Below, one piece after another: positions 16,828-26,400 of a DNA stretch of 64,000 nt (positions within the stretch are counted from its first letter, which is position 1; each line of letters begins with the position of its first letter). This DNA comes from Chrysomallon squamiferum (lineage: Eukaryota > Animalia > Mollusca): positions 9,734,001-9,798,000 of the forward strand of contig CM022668.1 in the NCBI GenBank assembly GCA_012295275.1, read 5' to 3'. The notes below the pieces were generated by a model. It had not been told where the DNA came from and did no database searches. It was given only the letters and a program-made list of their open reading frames with translations. The position numbers and the translations under genes were made by a program.

Positions 16828-19800
16828 TTTAAAATATTTCTGCAATTGTTTACTTTTAAGATAAATCTCATTTAGATGACTTTACAAAGAATTATGATAT
16901 TTGTTCTTAACATTAAAAAGTACACAATGAAGAAAACAAAACAAAAACATTTTTATTGTATTTTTTTTTTATATCAAAAATTTTTATTCTCACCTTCTTT
17001 CACTTCAGCCTCGGGTTCCATTTTTATAATTTTCTTTGCTGGTTCATCTTCGTCTTGTTCCTGTTTTCTTTTTTTGGGAACTTTAGGCAAAGTTGAGTCT
17101 GCTGCAGTAATGTATGTCTTTATTTCACTGAAACATTCAGTTCAGAAATATTAATTATTCACATGTCTACTATCCATTTTTCTGTGTGTCAATTAACCAT
17201 CAATCACTTGTTAACCAACCTGTTCTTAAATGTCAAATAATTATTTAACATACGTATCAACTCATTTGTGTTAATGTGTCCATCATTGACATGTTGAGTA
17301 ACTATTTCTTTTAAATGTGTCCACCAATTATAATACCAGTACAATACATCTAGTATTAATTTTTTCATATTACCTAGATCTCTTCAAAGTATGTCTTGGT
17401 CAACTAGTTCAATATGCTCAGTGTTTTACTTGTCAAATCATTTTATGTGTGCTTATAATTTTACTTGTTGATTACTAATTTTATTCGTCAACTAATCATT
17501 TTACACACTGAAAAATCATTTTAACTGTCAACTTATGTGATAACTGTGTCAACTAATTTTTGCATATCAATTGATCATTATGTGCTGTCCAACTGTCAGG
17601 AACATGTCATGATAAATCAGATATCTCAATCATTTTACAAACACCAAACATTAATCTATTAATCAATTTAAATATCGGATACTAAAACTTGTGAACCTAA
17701 TCATTTTTTCCAATTTGCAAAACAACTGCACTGATCTTTCTCTTGACTGAATCTGCAGATAATTTAACCCATTAATTAAATGTCTGCATCTTTAACCAAA
17801 GCAGCTATTTTTCCAGCCAGTTTAAACATTACAAATGCTGACTGAAGTGTTTTAGCAGCAGAATATATGAATGGTATTTGAAAACTAAATGAAGTTAAAT
17901 AATTTCAGAAACTATATTTAGTCTAAGATTTTAGTTTTTATTATGTAAAGATGTGAAAAACTTAAATATATGTCATTTATAAACTATTTTAAACAAACCT
18001 TCTGTTTTCGTATTTCTCCCATTTTGCCTTCATTTTTCCAGTACCACTTATTCTTCTTGACTGAAAGTGATAATCATTAACTTTTTAATTGCTAAAATTA
18101 TGAAATAAATTATTCTTACTTTTTCACTTACAGACTGGTAAAAAGTAAGTAAAATCTAAATGTATCAAAGTAATTTAAACCTTTTAAGAATTTCATTGTT
18201 GAAACTAAAAATCTTAATTTTGTAAGATATTACTTTACAATTCATAAATACCCAAATTAAATTTTAATTATTTAATCTTTTTAAGGCACTAAAAAATATC
18301 AAATTTCAATTTGATATCAGGTCTATTTTAAAGACATCTGTTACAAAAAGGTCCCCTCATTGTAGTATGTTGTCCACATAAGTTTCAGACCACTACTTTT
18401 CAATATAATCACTGGAGACCTTTATAAAATTAACATTCAGACAGGAGATATAATGAAATTTTTACTAGTGAATTGCATCTACATCTCAGACATTTAATGA
18501 GATGAACCAAAGCAGTGACACATCTGCACTTTGCAACAAAATGAGAAATGGCCAAAGGTATTAAATTAGTAAATTTGTTTAAAACAGGCAATTTATTTTC
18601 ACGAATATCAATCAACTTTAGAGAGATTAATGCCACTTTATTTGAAAAAATTGAATTATTTCAAAAATTGATAAATGTATTAGAAATCAACAACAAAAAT
18701 TATCAATCTTTCAAAACCATCACATAAAACATGAATATAAAATAAATAAAAAAAATAATTTTAAAATAGATCGCTGTCATTAATACAGTAACAAAGTGTT
18801 TGCAACTTACTCCAGACTCCTCCAAACTTTTCATAGCCCGTTCCAACTTGGCCCTGTGTTCCAAGCCGAGATCTGTATTAGTGTCGTCTCCCAGGGCATC
18901 AACACGTATAGCTAGCGACGTCTTCGCTGCCAACATTCGAGACATCTGAAATAAAGTGACGTCAGACGGTTATAAAATGTACAAGTTTATTTCTTTAGTG
19001 AAATGTTTATGATTTTGAGATCTTATTTTGTTGTCTTTCTAACTCAAAATTACCAACTTGGCACAAAATATGTATCTACTGTCAACATCAAAACCACTTC
19101 AATCCATGTTCAACACTAATTATATAACCAACGTTCTAAGTAATACATTTTTATTTTTTTATTATTAATGGTATTCCATGCTGTTCCAAAATTTGTTAAA
19201 AAAAAAAAAAAAAAAAAAATTAATGACAAACTGACATTTTAAAGCAACACAAGAGGTTTTACCCTTTGAAAATACATACAGAGTACAAATTTAGCACATA
19301 ACTCTTAAGATATTTTGACTGGGTTTGTTTTATATTTAATAAAACAGTTTTCTTTGTTAAATTATAATTAATATTTGTAAAAAGAAAAGTAACGTGACAC
19401 CTGAAATATTAAAGCAATGAAAGAAAAAAAAAAGGTTTTCAATAAAAGAAATTTCTCACCTTTCCTTTGAATTTAGGGCTTGACTGACCTACAAGAGAGG
19501 CATGGTAAATGAGACCATATTTGGGCGTGTCGTGTTTTGTTTTCAGAGCTCGGAACAAAGCTTTCTCTGCTCCAATAATCTGAACCGTTGATGATGGATG
19601 TTTTGCCAAGTTCAGCAAAGAACCTGTAAATACCAAACAGATAGTTGTGTTATAATTCATAAATAACATTACTGTGTTAATGGGCAACTGCTGTTAAGAC
19701 ATACAGAGAATGTTATTATGATTTTTTTTTAAATATCGCTAAAAAAGAAGCAGAATTAGTATGATGGAACAGCATGATCTGAAGATGATCAAAACAACAC

Positions 19801-21142
19801 TACCCAAAGCCATTATAATATTGTTGTCTGAATAAAAGCCTTTAACTAATTACTGAAGTAATCGAAAGTATAAAAACTACTATTTTTTAATTTGAAGTAT
19901 ATAAAAAAAAAAAAAAACATTACAATGTTTTAATCTGGAGTATAAAATCACTATCTCAGACTGAATTGGACATCAACAATTTTCAGAATTGGAGGACTTT
20001 GTCATCACTGCTAGTGAAATTTGTCAACAGAAGAAAAATGTTTTTTAACACAGTATTCCTACACAGTAGTACCCACAATTAATAGAACAGGAAATTCACC
20101 AGTAGCCATGGCAGCACAACATACATCAAAACTTGACCATTATAGATTTACAGTTTGATATTGCATTTGGAAAGATACAGAAGAATCATTAATACCAGTT
20201 TGTATGATACACTAACATGCAGCAAGAAATCTGATTTCCTGGACAGAACTGCATACACAATGTAAGTTTGGCCACAGAGAAAAAAAAACAATTTAAGACA
20301 CTTGGAATGAGTTTCTCATATCTCTGACAGTTTTCTAATGCCTGAACTAAAATGTTATTTTTTAAAAATTCTGTTTACATCACAAAATTATTTGATTACC
20401 ACACAATGTTTTGTTCAACACAGTATCATAAACTGCTGTTATACCAGCTTCTCAGATTGCTAGATAACCATATTAAATTTGTTTTCTATTTTTTTTTTTT
20501 TAATTATTCAGAATTTACATAAGCTCTAAGTCACTGCAAGTCACTTAAGAACATCACTTAAGAACAAATTTCCTCATAATGCCACTCCTAACTCAAGTCT
20601 TGCCATTGTTATTTCCCTTTTGATTAATTGTTCCACTTTTAACTTTTGTGTCTGAGTTTTGAAATTGTTTTTTTACTAACAATCAAAACACAAAAGAAAA
20701 CTGCCACTCAACATGCATATTTACCAATCAAGACCGTGAAACAAAACATTTTCTGCTATCAAGTCTTTACCTAACATTGAGTCAGTTTAAATATTTAAAA
20801 TGTTCAGAGTCTGCTTCAGCAAAGTCATCATCAATGAATCAGAATTGCAGGACATCCTGTCATCATCAGCAAATACTGAACATTCAGTTATAAAATCACT
20901 TAACCAAACCAAATCCATGCCTCAAACAAGACAACAGTTATCAGGTGCCTTAAAGTATTTGAAGTGCAGCCTCTATTCAATAAATTACAAAAAAGTTTTC
21001 TTCCACATAATAAAATACACATGTTTGACCAGAAAACAGCCCAACTATTAATAACATTATCTCCAGCATTTGGTATGCTGGTACTTACCAATAAAAAAAA
21101 AAATTATTATGTTTATCTGCCATAAGGATTTAATGTTTAAAT

Positions 21143-21178
<36 letters not shown>

Positions 21179-23420
21179 AAAAAAATAAAAAAAAAAAATC
21201 TGCACCATAGTCTTAGATAAATACTCACCTAAATGGGACATAAGCAGTACATTAACTCAAAAATAACTACACTATCTTAAAACACAAATAAAGCATGATA
21301 AAACACTGAACAGTGATGTAAAACATCCAAGGCTGAATGGACTTAAATATATCTATATATCCATATATAATCTTAAAAAACACCTATCAAGATGAACAAT
21401 TTGCTTCAGATATGTCATCATCAACTAATCAGAATTGCAGGACATCCGATCATCATTAGCAATTTCACCAAATTCAAATCAGTTTCACTCAAAATTAGAA
21501 TACAAATGGCAGAATTCACTTAAACATGACACTATCAAACACTGACAGTTCAGGTATGTTCTTTAATATTCATATGTACAATACTTGCAAGAACACTCAG
21601 TCTTACCTCTAAACCAACAGTAATTTTGATGTGTTAAATATTAATATTCAAAGTGACCTGCTTGACCTATCAGTCTGGCCCACACACCAGCAGTAGAATT
21701 ATTAATATTCAGTAATATTAATATTAATAACAGTATTAATATTCAAAGTTACCAGCATGAGCTATCAGTCTGGCTCCAACCAATTCTCCTACCAGTATTG
21801 TCAAGTTGGGTGCTATGGCAATCATTCGGTTCTTGAGATAATCATACAGCTGAGCTCGATAGTCAGAGATATCTATAATCTGAATTTGTGAAGAAATGAA
21901 AAATATTATTAATTCTTTTATTTTATTTTATTTTTTTTTAATTCTAAGTCAGATGATAATGATAAAAAAATATATATATAAAAAAATAAAATTTATAATT
22001 ATGAAAGATACATTTTGTTTTCCCCTTTTCTCATTGCAATATCCTATCCTCAACATTTTTAACCCGGTCGTAACTCACATTATCCTACAGTTATATCTTA
22101 GTTTGCCATCTTACCAGTTTTAATACAATTCTGTTCTGTTTTATATCTTGGTTAATTACAGATAATACCCTAATCATTTAAATCCTACCACTGAGTTTAC
22201 CGTAGTCATATCTCACATTTAATGCACCTTAAGTGTTTATATCTTAAGTTACTCATATAATAACATATCCTACTATTAACTGTATCCTAGTGTTTATATC
22301 CTGTTAGATATCAACCTACTATTAACTGCCCCTAAGCCTTTATATCCCAACAGTTATTTTCTTATTATTCTACTGCTAGCAGTATCTCTGATTTATATTC
22401 TATCAGACATTTTCATTTTATCCAGTGCTAACTGCATCCTAGTTGTACCTGATCACAAAGATACTGAATATTCAAAAGATCCTCCTCTGAAATTTCTGTT
22501 CCCATGGAGATTTCGGCGGCCTCTTTTACTTCCTGTTCAACCTCTTCAGGTAAAATTGCCGAAAAATCGCAGGCGACTGCATTAACACGTTCACCTGGCG
22601 AAAGGGCAAAGGTCATCTTTAGAGAGAACAGGAATTTTGTTTTATCTTTATCTTTTCTTTTCTTTTTAAATAATCTTAACTGGTTAACCCATTTTAAAAA
22701 GAAATCGTTTGGCATTTTTGTTAGTTGTTATCTCAAGACAGAGTATGTTTATAAAACCTAACAGTGAAATAAAATATTAAATAATTCAGGTGAAGGATGT
22801 ATTTTTTCATTTAACATTCTGTAAGCATGAAAAAAAAAAACAGGTTGTGAAAATAGGTTCCAAAAGACATGATTAGTGAAAATTTCAATGATTTAAATGA
22901 AGCTTTTCATCATGTACACACTGACATGAAAAATGATTCGATGATACAAAATGACAGATGCTGTACAATGTACAGTAGTTTACATACCCATTTGTTTGAC
23001 AAGTTTTGCATAGGCGAGGTTGTCCTGTACAATTTTGCCAAGTTCTGGGAAATGCCATCCAAACCATTCCCGACATCGCATGATGTAGTTGTTCAGCTCC
23101 TTATCAAGATCATCAAGCAGAGCTGTGATTAAACATGAGAGAATTTCTAAATATCAGTATACAAGACATTTAAACATTGGTTAGTTAGGCAGAAACCAAA
23201 ACATTATCTGAAGCAATTTAAAATTCTGCAGTACAATATAAATTTCTAATCGGTTAGTGTCAAATTTATAGTCTCAAGATACTAATCTAGCAACAAGGTT
23301 CTGTTATGAATTTTGTGGGATTTAATAATGGAATGAATAATTACTGAAACTAATCTTGTTTTTAATTTCATGAAAAAGAAGAATGGACCACTCTGAATCA
23401 ACATACTTTATCCTACAGAG

Positions 23421-23458
<38 letters not shown>

Positions 23459-26400
23459 AACATCAAAATTGACAAGTTTTAGGTTTAAATGTTTTCAGCA
23501 ATTATATAATGACAATTTTAAATACAAAACTTTTATTAAATAGATGGCATACTTAGTATTTAAGACCAAAATAATGCCTATATTTGATTTGATTACAAGA
23601 GTTCCTGAAGTAACAATTCTAACTGCAGAAAGAAATATTAAAAATACATTTTTTAAAAACTTACAGATGGCTTGAACTATCATTGTATCCACTTTGTCTG
23701 GACTGAACTTCAACTTATATCTTGACAAACTGAAAAATTACAATCACATGACTAAAAAATCAAACATTAAAATCTATTTAAACATTAACAATAAGTGATG
23801 CAATAAGAACATCTCTATGAAAATCTTACTTCAAATTACTAGACCAAAAAGAACACAGCCAAGATTTAAAAATAACCTAATCTACTGCAAATTTCCAGAA
23901 ATTGTCAAAGCTAAGACAAGTTACCTGTGAGCTAAGCCTAAAGCCATGGCAGCCATTTCTTTCTGTGGTAGACCAGTGATCAAACTGTCCATCTGTGAGC
24001 GAATACACCTCATCAGTTCCTGAACACTGGAGTTTGATAAACACTGCATGTTAAACTTGTCCTGCAACAGTAAACACACTCCATTACAATTTTAATTTTC
24101 ATAAAATTGCAGAGAAATATTTCCACAATTATTCAAATTTGTTCTTTATTATGTTTATATCTGATATGTAAATGTAAATATTTTACTCAAATATTTAATT
24201 CATTTTGGTTCAAACATGGAATTTTTTTTTTTCAATGAAATGGTCAAAATTCACACGTATATAAAACCTTAATAAATTCGATGTTCTTAATTAGTAAAAA
24301 AAAAAAAATATTAAAAATTTAAATGTCGGCAAGTTATTCAAGATTATGAAATGTTTTGAAACATTTGTATTTGCAATTTACAAGATAATTATGTGTATTA
24401 AAAAAATTAACATGCAAAATTTCAAATTTACATACATACTAATACAAACAATTGCACTTCAAAAAATTTGATAACCATTTCTACTGTGCAAACAGCTTGA
24501 CATTTATTTATCAGTGGCCAATATCTGACAAAATGCTTACCTTGATGACACTGCCAAGTTTAGCATCAGCAACTAATAGTTGTTCCTGAGCATCTGTGGC
24601 AATCAGTTTTTTCATCATTTTCTTCAACGTTTTACTCATCTTTCCTTCCACTACAGCTGTAGCAGCTGGAAAATAAAATTTTATAAAAATTATTTTTATT
24701 TGAAAGTAAATTTAGGAATAATAGCATAAGGAAGAATAGGGATAATAGGTTTTCTTAAAATCAATCATGGATGTGCATACATACATGTACAAACAGTTCT
24801 GTATTAAATTTCAAAATTTGAGATTAATTTCAGCACATTTTAAAACTCAACAAATACAAGGATGTAGTTTGTTGTGGAAGATAAGTGCCATTTTATAATT
24901 TTAGTTATATTTTAAAATGTTGGTGTTTTTTTTACCTGAAAGAGCTTCTGTCATGTCCTTGAATTTCTGAAAGTGTCTCAGTTTCACTCTGAAATAATAA
25001 AATTATTGAAATGATGTCAAACTAATACATTTCAACATGACTAGAATACTTGCGGTTTCAAGAAGGTCATATCACTTCAGCACAAAATTATAAAACTTTT
25101 GTTATTTCTGAACATATTAATAATTTGTGTTTTAAAGTAAAACTACTGTGTATATGGTCTTCCATTTAAAAAAAAATAAAAAAAAATTTAACTGGAGCTT
25201 TAGTATTAACTTTGAAATATACTTTTATTTTAGAAATTCAAATTTATCAGGTTTTCGAATGTTCTTACACTTAAAATTGTCCTACTTTAAATAGTCAATA
25301 TGTTTAATACAAATTTATTAATAGTAATGCATCTTTTAACAATTATAAACATTCATATATATGTGTTGGTGTAAATGTATTCTGCCTCAGAGGTAGTGAC
25401 GAATAAGTATCTTCAAAAACATCAGCAAGTTAAAAAAGTTATACATCATTGGCGGAACATTTACAACACATGACAAAATAACTTGCATATTACAAGTGAA
25501 AGCTTACATTTTGCTTGCTTGATCTGGATTTTCAAAGTCTAAGTAGAGATTTTCTGTTTTCTGCAACTTCTTTTCCTTTAGAAGCTAAAATATACAATTA
25601 AAAAAATATATATTAACTTATTTGCAATAATCATTTTAAAAATGTCATTCTAGTTTGTTTTATTGTTTTTGTTGAGTAAAACAAAATTACAAATGTAATC
25701 ACAGCCAGTAGATGGTTAAGAAGATAGACATTTTTTTTGAAGCTGCCATCTGGAATTGATTTTGTTGACTATTCCCTGTTTCAGTGTAAATTTCTGTTTT
25801 CCTTCAGAGGAAAATTCACAAACTGAACAAGCCAACTTGGCTGATCTGCAAGTTTGACTTGTTCGTGAAAAACTCAAATATCAGCAACTACAGACAGTGC
25901 AGTTCAGGCTTTGGATTAAGTACACCGATTAAATGCTGAATGAGCTTTATTGAAGTGCATTTTATCATAGGACAGTTTTGTTTTTGAATTTACACTGATG
26001 ATGCTAGTTTGCCTGTTAAGTGAACATAAAATACATTATACAAAATCAGTGTGTGGTCTGTGACTTTGAACAGGGATGTTTCGAGAGACATTAAATACTG
26101 GTACTCTTGTGTTCATTTGTAACTTCGGAAATACGTGGCCCATTTGGATGCAGACATCAAGCTTTAATACATTACATTATCAACACAAACTGATGAATTG
26201 ATTCAGATATAACTGCTCAAAAATATTTTTCAACTTGTTCAGCAGTTACAGAAATAATAAAAAGTACAAGAGAATGTAGATTTTTGTCAGTAACATTTGT
26301 CTTTTCTAAAAAAAATTACTAATTATTATTTTAAAATGATATAATTTGAATATGTTCATATGCGTAACTAAAACCTATTCATGCAGCATAACTGATGATT

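What the first reader, a model, noticed from the sequence alone, without database searches (positions are those of the whole stretch)
19948..20017. snoRNA paralog whose guide differs by one base and may have switched from 5.8S to 18S rRNA
Seen: its D' guide GTCCTCCAATT-CTGA differs from the two neighbouring 5.8S guides (GTCCTGCAATT-CTGA) by one G>C at position -6, while the boxes and a 6-bp terminal stem remain intact. The change puts a C-C mismatch next to the 5.8S target base. It also creates complementarity to conserved 18S AUUGGAGGGC (10 bp with one G-U), predicting methylation of the first G of UUGGAGGGC. By my count this is not the human Gm601 position. Inference: duplication followed by single-base retargeting, possibly giving a lineage-specific rRNA modification. 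The D-box guide (TGTCCAATTCAGT) has no target I recognise.
Basis: partly seen in the sequence, partly recalled or inferred. Interest (0 to 1): 0.75.

Follow-up and report, generated by a model that had tools for sequence, protein, structure and literature searches.

The report
One-base retargeted rRNA guide in snail
An old third copy of a small guide RNA in an intron of a snail's NOP58 gene carries one guide change, shared by every sample examined, that breaks its match to 5.8S ribosomal RNA and is predicted to redirect its methyl mark to a spot in 18S ribosomal RNA not mapped in six model species, though neither its expression nor the mark has been shown.

Summary
The feature is real: a box C/D RNA (19948-20017, minus strand) in a NOP58 intron of a gastropod close to Gigantopelta, beside two intact 5.8S-Gm75 guides. 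Its D' guide differs from theirs at -6 (G>C, window 19992), present in 5 of 5 DNA runs covering it. That change is the only 1 of 36 single-base changes of the sibling guide giving a new 10-bp site in the animal-type proxy rRNA set: 18S G597 (human numbering), base of helix 18, positions -2 to -11, one G-U. It is not a recent copy: outside boxes and guide it matches the siblings at background (11/35, 13/35), so the guide was held by selection. G597 is not listed for six mapped species, but an unrelated, probably green-algal C/D family in midasin introns is predicted to hit the same G with 14 bp. Missing: expression, methylation, an orthologue, the snail's own rRNA. A recently disabled redundant 5.8S guide with a lucky match (about 3-6% a priori) remains open. 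Point-mutation retargeting is published for vertebrate snoRNAs. Verdict: new variant of a known kind; retargeting about 50% likely.

The parts
19948..20017 (-). Candidate box C/D snoRNA, 70 nt including terminal stem
   Evidence: Sequence; only sub-threshold generic C/D hits in Rfam
20002..20008 (-). Box C, GTGATGA, exact RUGAUGA consensus
   Evidence: Sequence
19987..19997 (-). D' antisense element GTCCTCCAATT; predicted to pair -2..-11 with 18S AUUGGAGGGC, target G597 (human numbering) opposite -5 (19991)
19992..19992 (-). The switched base, guide position -6 (C here, G in both neighbours)
   Evidence: unchanged in 5 of 5 DNA runs covering it
19983..19986 (-). Box D', CTGA
   Evidence: Sequence
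19970..19976 (-). Box C', TTGATGT (degenerate at positions 1 and 7, GAUG core intact)
   Evidence: Sequence
19960..19969 (-). 10-nt D-side spacer; no canonical target; polymorphic at 19963; shares an 8-nt word with the D' guide
19956..19959 (-). Box D, CTGA
   Evidence: Sequence
20012..20017 (-). 5' arm of terminal stem, pairs with 19948-19953
   Evidence: Sequence; fold
20816..20866 (-). Sibling C/D snoRNA (C to D box), perfect guide for 5.8S Gm75-equivalent
21406..21456 (-). Sibling C/D snoRNA (C to D box), perfect guide for 5.8S Gm75-equivalent
19624..21752 (-). NOP58 host intron (2129 nt) holding all three copies
   Evidence: GT/AG read from sequence; contigs of 2 of 2 RNA runs skip 2129 nt here; NOP58

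Best explanation
This is a box C/D RNA gene, likely an old duplicate of the neighbouring 5.8S guides, whose single G>C guide change is predicted to redirect fibrillarin to 2'-O-methylate 18S G597 (human numbering) at the base of helix 18. Shown: boxes, stem, position in a spliced NOP58 intron, the base change and its presence in all samples, the 10-bp match to conserved 18S sequence. Inferred: release from the intron and assembly with NOP58/NOP56/15.5K/fibrillarin; descent from the 5.8S guide (same intron, 10 of 11 guide bases, same C-guide-D'-C' spacing, U at -10 that is Watson-Crick with 5.8S but a wobble with 18S); freedom to change because two intact siblings still cover 5.8S; D+5 methylation of G597 on pre-rRNA before helix 18 closes. 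The D-side spacer is likely not a guide.
For: G>C at -6 is the only 1 of 36 single-base changes of the sibling guide that creates a new site of 10 bp or more with at most one G-U in the animal-type proxy set; in the two other sets it is 1 of 2, the second being a match to fungal/plant 5.8S. Duplex energy: candidate/18S -16.6, candidate/5.8S -10.6, sibling/5.8S -17.1, sibling/18S -13.2 kcal/mol. The duplex fills -2..-11, the window used in catalysis (10 bp active, 8 bp not; core -3..-11; PMC7229835). Guide 10/11 identical to siblings while non-box, non-guide identity is 11/35 and 13/35 against 25/38 between siblings (binomial P 0.0001 and 0.0004), with a different but intact terminal stem. Base unchanged in 5 of 5 DNA runs from 3 studies; no listed variant in boxes, D' guide or stem. 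A conserved, probably green-algal family (14 of 29 scan hits, 7 distinct bodies, compensatory stem change) pairs 14 bp with the same G. Neighbouring A590 and G601 are methylated in other species. Precedent for one-base switches (PMC6984369 section 10).
Against: No expression data: no listed RNA contig covers the candidate (such libraries cannot show a 70-nt RNA). No methylation data; G597 is not listed for fly, human, yeast, Arabidopsis, Xenopus or Dictyostelium. The snail's rRNAs were not obtained; all pairing is on proxies selected by the same motif, backed only by the Rfam SSU consensus. Chance is not small: 9, 16 and 23 of 400 shuffled guides find an equal site. The low polymorphism is not significant (1 variant seen, 3.2 expected, P 0.18). 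Nothing outside the core has adapted to 18S (U stays at -10; no pairing beyond -11). No orthologue found in the second organism or in metagenomes.
Confidence: 0.5

Rival explanations
1. An old redundant third 5.8S-Gm75 guide, kept long enough for its scaffold to diverge, recently picked up a disabling guide mutation that drifted to fixation because two siblings cover the site. The 18S match is a coincidence and gives little or no methylation.
For: Gives the same pattern of conserved guide and diverged scaffold. C' has degenerated, the -12 pair is lost, the D side is polymorphic. A chance new site arises for about 3% of single changes and 2-6% of shuffled guides, and the scan picked this copy because of the match. 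5.8S and 18S sites were already near-matches (sibling/18S -13.2 kcal/mol).
Against: The one core change is exactly the 1 of 36 that completes a new site. No second lesion in boxes, core guide or stem is listed in 5 runs. With intact boxes the RNA would likely act on 18S whether or not selection favoured it.
Confidence: 0.3
2. It is not a daughter of the 5.8S guides but a separate, older 18S-G597 guide family, which resembles its neighbours because the two rRNA targets happen to look alike; the algal family could be a distant member.
For: No homology to siblings outside boxes and guide or in 200-nt flanks. The algal family has the same 10-nt core on D', including U at -10, so that wobble need not be a 5.8S relic.
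Against: An unrelated family landing in the very intron that holds the two look-alike guides is unlikely (inference). Spacing of C, guide, D' and C' matches the siblings. No such guide or site is listed in fly, frog, mouse or human, and none of the 29 metagenome hits was an animal snoRNA.
Confidence: 0.12
3. It still guides 5.8S Gm75, tolerating the C.C mismatch, alone or as a dual 5.8S/18S guide.
For: Prediction rules allow one mismatch in at least seven nucleotides (PMC5389715); 10 of 11 pairs remain.
Against: The mismatch is next to the methylated base inside the -3..-11 core and costs 6.5 kcal/mol, splitting the duplex into 5+5 bp; a one-base mismatch can abolish guiding (PMC6984369).
Confidence: 0.08

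Closest known systems
5.8S Gm75/Gm74/Gm79 guides: human SNORD96 (name recalled), Drosophila snoRNA:CD34, Arabidopsis snoR39BY
   Same: The two siblings pair perfectly with the 5.8S G74/75 site, a site methylated in fly, human, Arabidopsis and Xenopus; the candidate shares 10 of 11 guide bases and the D' position with the siblings.
   Different: Candidate has a C.C mismatch at -6 against 5.8S; no Rfam SNORD96 hit for any of the three copies at E up to 10; host is NOP58 (human host RACK1 is recalled).
Vertebrate target switches by point mutation (SNORD19/SNORD69, SNORA16 to pug18S-137, SNORA58 to pug18S-324; Deryusheva et al., PMC6984369)
   Same: Duplication, then one guide base changes specificity.
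   Different: There the C/D example is a loss of an 18S target and the gains are H/ACA; here a C/D guide would move from 5.8S (large subunit) to 18S, with parent-type and switched copies in one intron, and it is untested.
SNORD85/SNORD103 (18S Gm601) and SNORD62/snR41 (18S Am590/Am541)
   Same: Guides to the same stretch of 18S.
   Different: Different register: D+5 falls on G597, four bases 5' of G601 and seven 3' of A590.
Unnamed C/D family in midasin introns of probable green algae (L049, L053, L062, L068, L070, L075, L076)
   Same: D' guide with the same GUCCUCCAAU core, predicted to methylate the same G, same G-U at -10.
   Different: 14-bp duplex, other host gene, other kingdom; no Rfam family at gathering score (best SNORD81, 34.7 of 50 bits); also only predicted.

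Membership tests
Box C/D methylation-guide snoRNA | Box C (RUGAUGA) and box D (CUGA) closed by a terminal stem in kink-turn geometry | tested here: met
   Sequence and fold
Box C/D methylation-guide snoRNA | Internal D' and C' boxes | tested here: met
   D' exact; C' TTGATGT keeps the GAUG core; imperfect C'/D' is usual in eukaryotes
Box C/D methylation-guide snoRNA | About 10 bp antisense to rRNA over -2..-11 with a Watson-Crick pair at -5 | tested here: met
   10-11 bp, in 9 of 9 proxy 18S (proxies were fetched by this motif); Rfam consensus agrees; the snail's own 18S not seen
Box C/D methylation-guide snoRNA | Sense-strand location in a spliced intron of an expressed host gene | tested here: met
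   NOP58 intron skipped in contigs of 2 of 2 RNA runs
Box C/D methylation-guide snoRNA | Accumulates as a mature RNA bound to fibrillarin and directs the methylation | not testable with these tools
   Only RNA-seq contigs were offered
5.8S Gm75 guide family (SNORD96 / CD34 / snoR39BY) | Unbroken complementarity to the 5.8S G75 site | tested here: not met
   C.C at -6; -10.6 against -17.1 kcal/mol
5.8S Gm75 guide family (SNORD96 / CD34 / snoR39BY) | Match to the Rfam SNORD96 model | tested here: inconclusive
   No hit for the candidate, but none for the two perfect siblings either
5.8S Gm75 guide family (SNORD96 / CD34 / snoR39BY) | Common descent with the 5.8S guides | tested here: inconclusive
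   Same intron and 10/11 guide, but background identity elsewhere; no orthologues for a tree
SNORD85/103 (18S Gm601) | D+5 base is G601 | tested here: not met
   D+5 is G597 by offsets to A590, G601, C621, U627
Midasin-intron algal G597 guide family | Homology outside the guide and boxes | not tested
   Only the guide cores were compared

The most novel reading that the evidence does not exclude
One transversion moved an ancient large-subunit (5.8S) guide onto the small subunit, giving a snail lineage a selected 2'-O-methyl at G597 in helix 18 next to the decoding centre, a site reached independently by a green-algal guide; parent and switched guides still share one intron.
Probability: 0.33. 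Interest if true: 0.6.

Novelty: new variant of a known kind. Interest (0 to 1): 0.42.

Why it matters
How new rRNA modification sites arise is mostly inferred from distant species. Here the predicted before and after states lie 850 bases apart and differ by one core base, so the switch can be tested with one RNA pair and one target that is conserved in yeast and human. If true it adds a helix-18 methylation absent from six mapped species and predicted in two distant lineages. If false it is an ordinary redundant snoRNA copy in early decay.

Tried and rejected
No own genome is held, so other copies elsewhere in the genome and the rDNA could not be searched. The 18S motif was not in viral contigs. 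Second organism (run X10, 80% threshold): 9 pieces laid, none on any of the three snoRNAs and none on the downstream exon, so uninformative. RNA runs X6, X9: no listed contig on the candidate; one depth-2 contig on a sibling; neither says anything on expression. Metagenome scan: 15 of 29 hits lack a D box with stem and were dropped as chance, including L054/L066 (guide-like word inside what reads as a ciliate coding region) and a 6-locus repeat family; one viral hit L078 likewise. D-side spacer: no site of 10 bp with at most one G-U spanning -2..-5 in proxies; best energy matched by 6 of 60 shuffles; a bulged 18S helix-17 pairing (-10.7) appears in 2 of 4 18S proxies only; snRNAs were not available to test. 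Internal 8-nt repeat between the two halves (25 of 1000 shuffles) may be an internal duplication; unresolved. Assembly error at 19992 rejected. Rfam gave no family for the candidate. Literature: 'Gm597 18S' returned only Arabidopsis numbering for the human Gm644 site; searches gave no report of this site or of mollusc guides; the Euglena supplement could not be read and Euglena, trypanosome, Chlamydomonas and C. elegans maps were not seen, so the site may be in print there. Earlier-findings look-ups found nothing on this locus.

Full report
Setting. The window holds an intron-rich NOP58 gene on the minus strand. One exon is 96% identical in protein to Gigantopelta aegis NOP58 and 83% to Haliotis, so the organism is likely a neomphaline gastropod. 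Rfam finds only SNORD70, in an earlier intron. The candidate lies in the 2129-nt intron 19624-21752, which contigs of 2 of 2 RNA runs skip as one piece, 324 nt from its 3' splice site, with two further C/D RNAs at 20816-20866 and 21406-21456.

Observation. All boxes, the stem and the guide are as described. The guide+D' 15-mer has 3 matches in 64 kb at up to 2 mismatches against 0.13 expected. The candidate differs from both neighbours at -6 (19992) and, outside the core, at -12. Base 19992 is unchanged in 5 of 5 DNA runs that cover it, from 3 studies; one run may be the source sample. For X1, X3 and X4 every substitution on the covering contig is listed; for X2 and X5 one and three are unlisted, but the tallies by kind leave no G change unplaced. 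The only listed variant inside the RNA is 19963, in the D-side spacer of X3. Contigs drop rare alleles. Against 23 listed variants in 509 flanking intron bases, 3.2 were expected in 70 nt and 1 seen (P 0.18): suggestive only.

Targets. The snail's rRNAs were not obtainable, so I used eukaryotic rDNA contaminating bacterial assemblies. These were fetched by the target motif, so they cannot show its conservation; the Rfam SSU consensus does (AuuGGAGGGC, helix opening at model 548). Siblings pair 11 bp without mismatch with the animal-type 5.8S at G74, the site mapped in fly, human, Arabidopsis and Xenopus (PMC11014333 Table 1; PMC8583080 passages). The candidate pairs 10-11 bp with 18S in 9 of 9 proxies, with one G-U in 8 and two in 1. 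Offsets 0, 11, 31 and 37 from the upstream A read A, G, C, U, matching Am590, Gm601, C621 and Um627, so the target at offset 7 is G597. Energies: candidate/18S -16.6, candidate/5.8S -10.6, sibling/5.8S -17.1, sibling/18S -13.2 kcal/mol. Reconstituted eukaryotic RNPs modify 10-bp but not 8-bp duplexes, and the core is -3..-11 (PMC7229835 passages and section 22), exactly the stretch covered.

Chance. Of 36 single-base changes of the sibling guide, only G>C at -6 makes a new site in the animal-type set; in two other sets 2 of 36, the extra one matching fungal/plant 5.8S. Shuffled guides find such a site in 16, 9 and 23 of 400. The match is therefore a 3-6% coincidence under drift: real evidence, not proof, for a copy chosen because of it.

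Age and selection. Outside boxes and guide the candidate matches the siblings at 11/35 and 13/35, the siblings each other at 25/38; the guide is 10/11 (P 0.0001, 0.0004 at the scaffold rate). Flanks show no homology. So it is an old copy whose boxes, guide and a new stem were kept, not a long-dead pseudogene. This cannot say whether the guide was kept for 5.8S until recently or for 18S since the switch.

The same site elsewhere. Table S4 of PMC11014333 (supplement rows) goes from human 590 to 601 in consecutive rows, so no 597-equivalent is listed for fly, human, mouse, yeast, Arabidopsis, Xenopus or Dictyostelium. A metagenome scan for C box + guide + D' gave 29 hits; 14 form one family with D box and 5-10 bp stems, 7 distinct bodies, a compensatory stem pair (7 of the 14 aligned), and 13 of 14 lie in midasin genes whose closest named protein among the 120 listed is Coccomyxa viridis at 84%, so probably green algae. 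Its guide pairs 14 bp with the same G. The scan was built to find this site, and many conserved rRNA positions probably have a guide in some eukaryote, so it is modest support: the site looks guide-able, and the mark would not be unique to the snail. It also carries U at -10, which weakens reading that wobble as a relic of 5.8S pairing.

Known comparisons. One-base changes of guide specificity after duplication are published (PMC6984369, passages and section 10); target switches in fungi are mostly moves of whole elements (PMC5824354 passages). Prediction rules tolerate one mismatch (PMC5389715 passages), so residual 5.8S activity is not formally excluded. PMC8393311 and PMC8351944 (passages) added nothing on this site. 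Searches showed no report of it; maps for Euglena (supplement unreadable), trypanosomes, Chlamydomonas and nematodes were not seen.

Verdict. It works like a standard C/D methylation guide; it is not a member of the 5.8S-Gm75 family by function, though likely by descent. Retargeting to 18S G597: 0.5; disabled redundant copy: 0.3; separate older family: 0.12; still 5.8S: 0.08. New variant of a known kind, interest 0.42.

Noticed in passing
L049:1493-1573 (+), also L050, L051, L053, L059, L060, L062, L068-L070, L072, L074-L076: Conserved C/D snoRNA family in midasin introns of probable green algae with a 14-bp D' guide predicted to methylate 18S G597 (human numbering); no Rfam family at gathering score.
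   Followed up: partly
window 25375-25462 (-): SNORD70 (Rfam 51.7 bits) in the second NOP58 intron; the human gene also sits in NOP58 (recalled), which would be host-gene conservation from snail to human.
   Followed up: no
window 19624-21752 (-): Three C/D snoRNAs in one intron that is spliced as a single piece; releasing all three would need endonucleolytic cuts or rare extra exons.
   Followed up: no
window 20816-20866 and 21406-21456 (-): The two 5.8S guides are very compact (51 nt from C to D, 5-nt D-side spacer, perfect C' box); one is polymorphic only in that spacer (21411, 21413).
   Followed up: partly
window 21639-21679 versus 21734-21774: A 41-nt, 90% identical copy of the exon end and 5' splice site lies just inside the intron; a possible alternative donor.
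   Followed up: no
window 20190-20348: A 159-nt intronic deletion in run X5 between the candidate and the nearer sibling.
   Followed up: no
L001-L048: About 430 stretches of the bacterial genome collection carry eukaryotic 18S rDNA, i.e. contamination.
   Followed up: no
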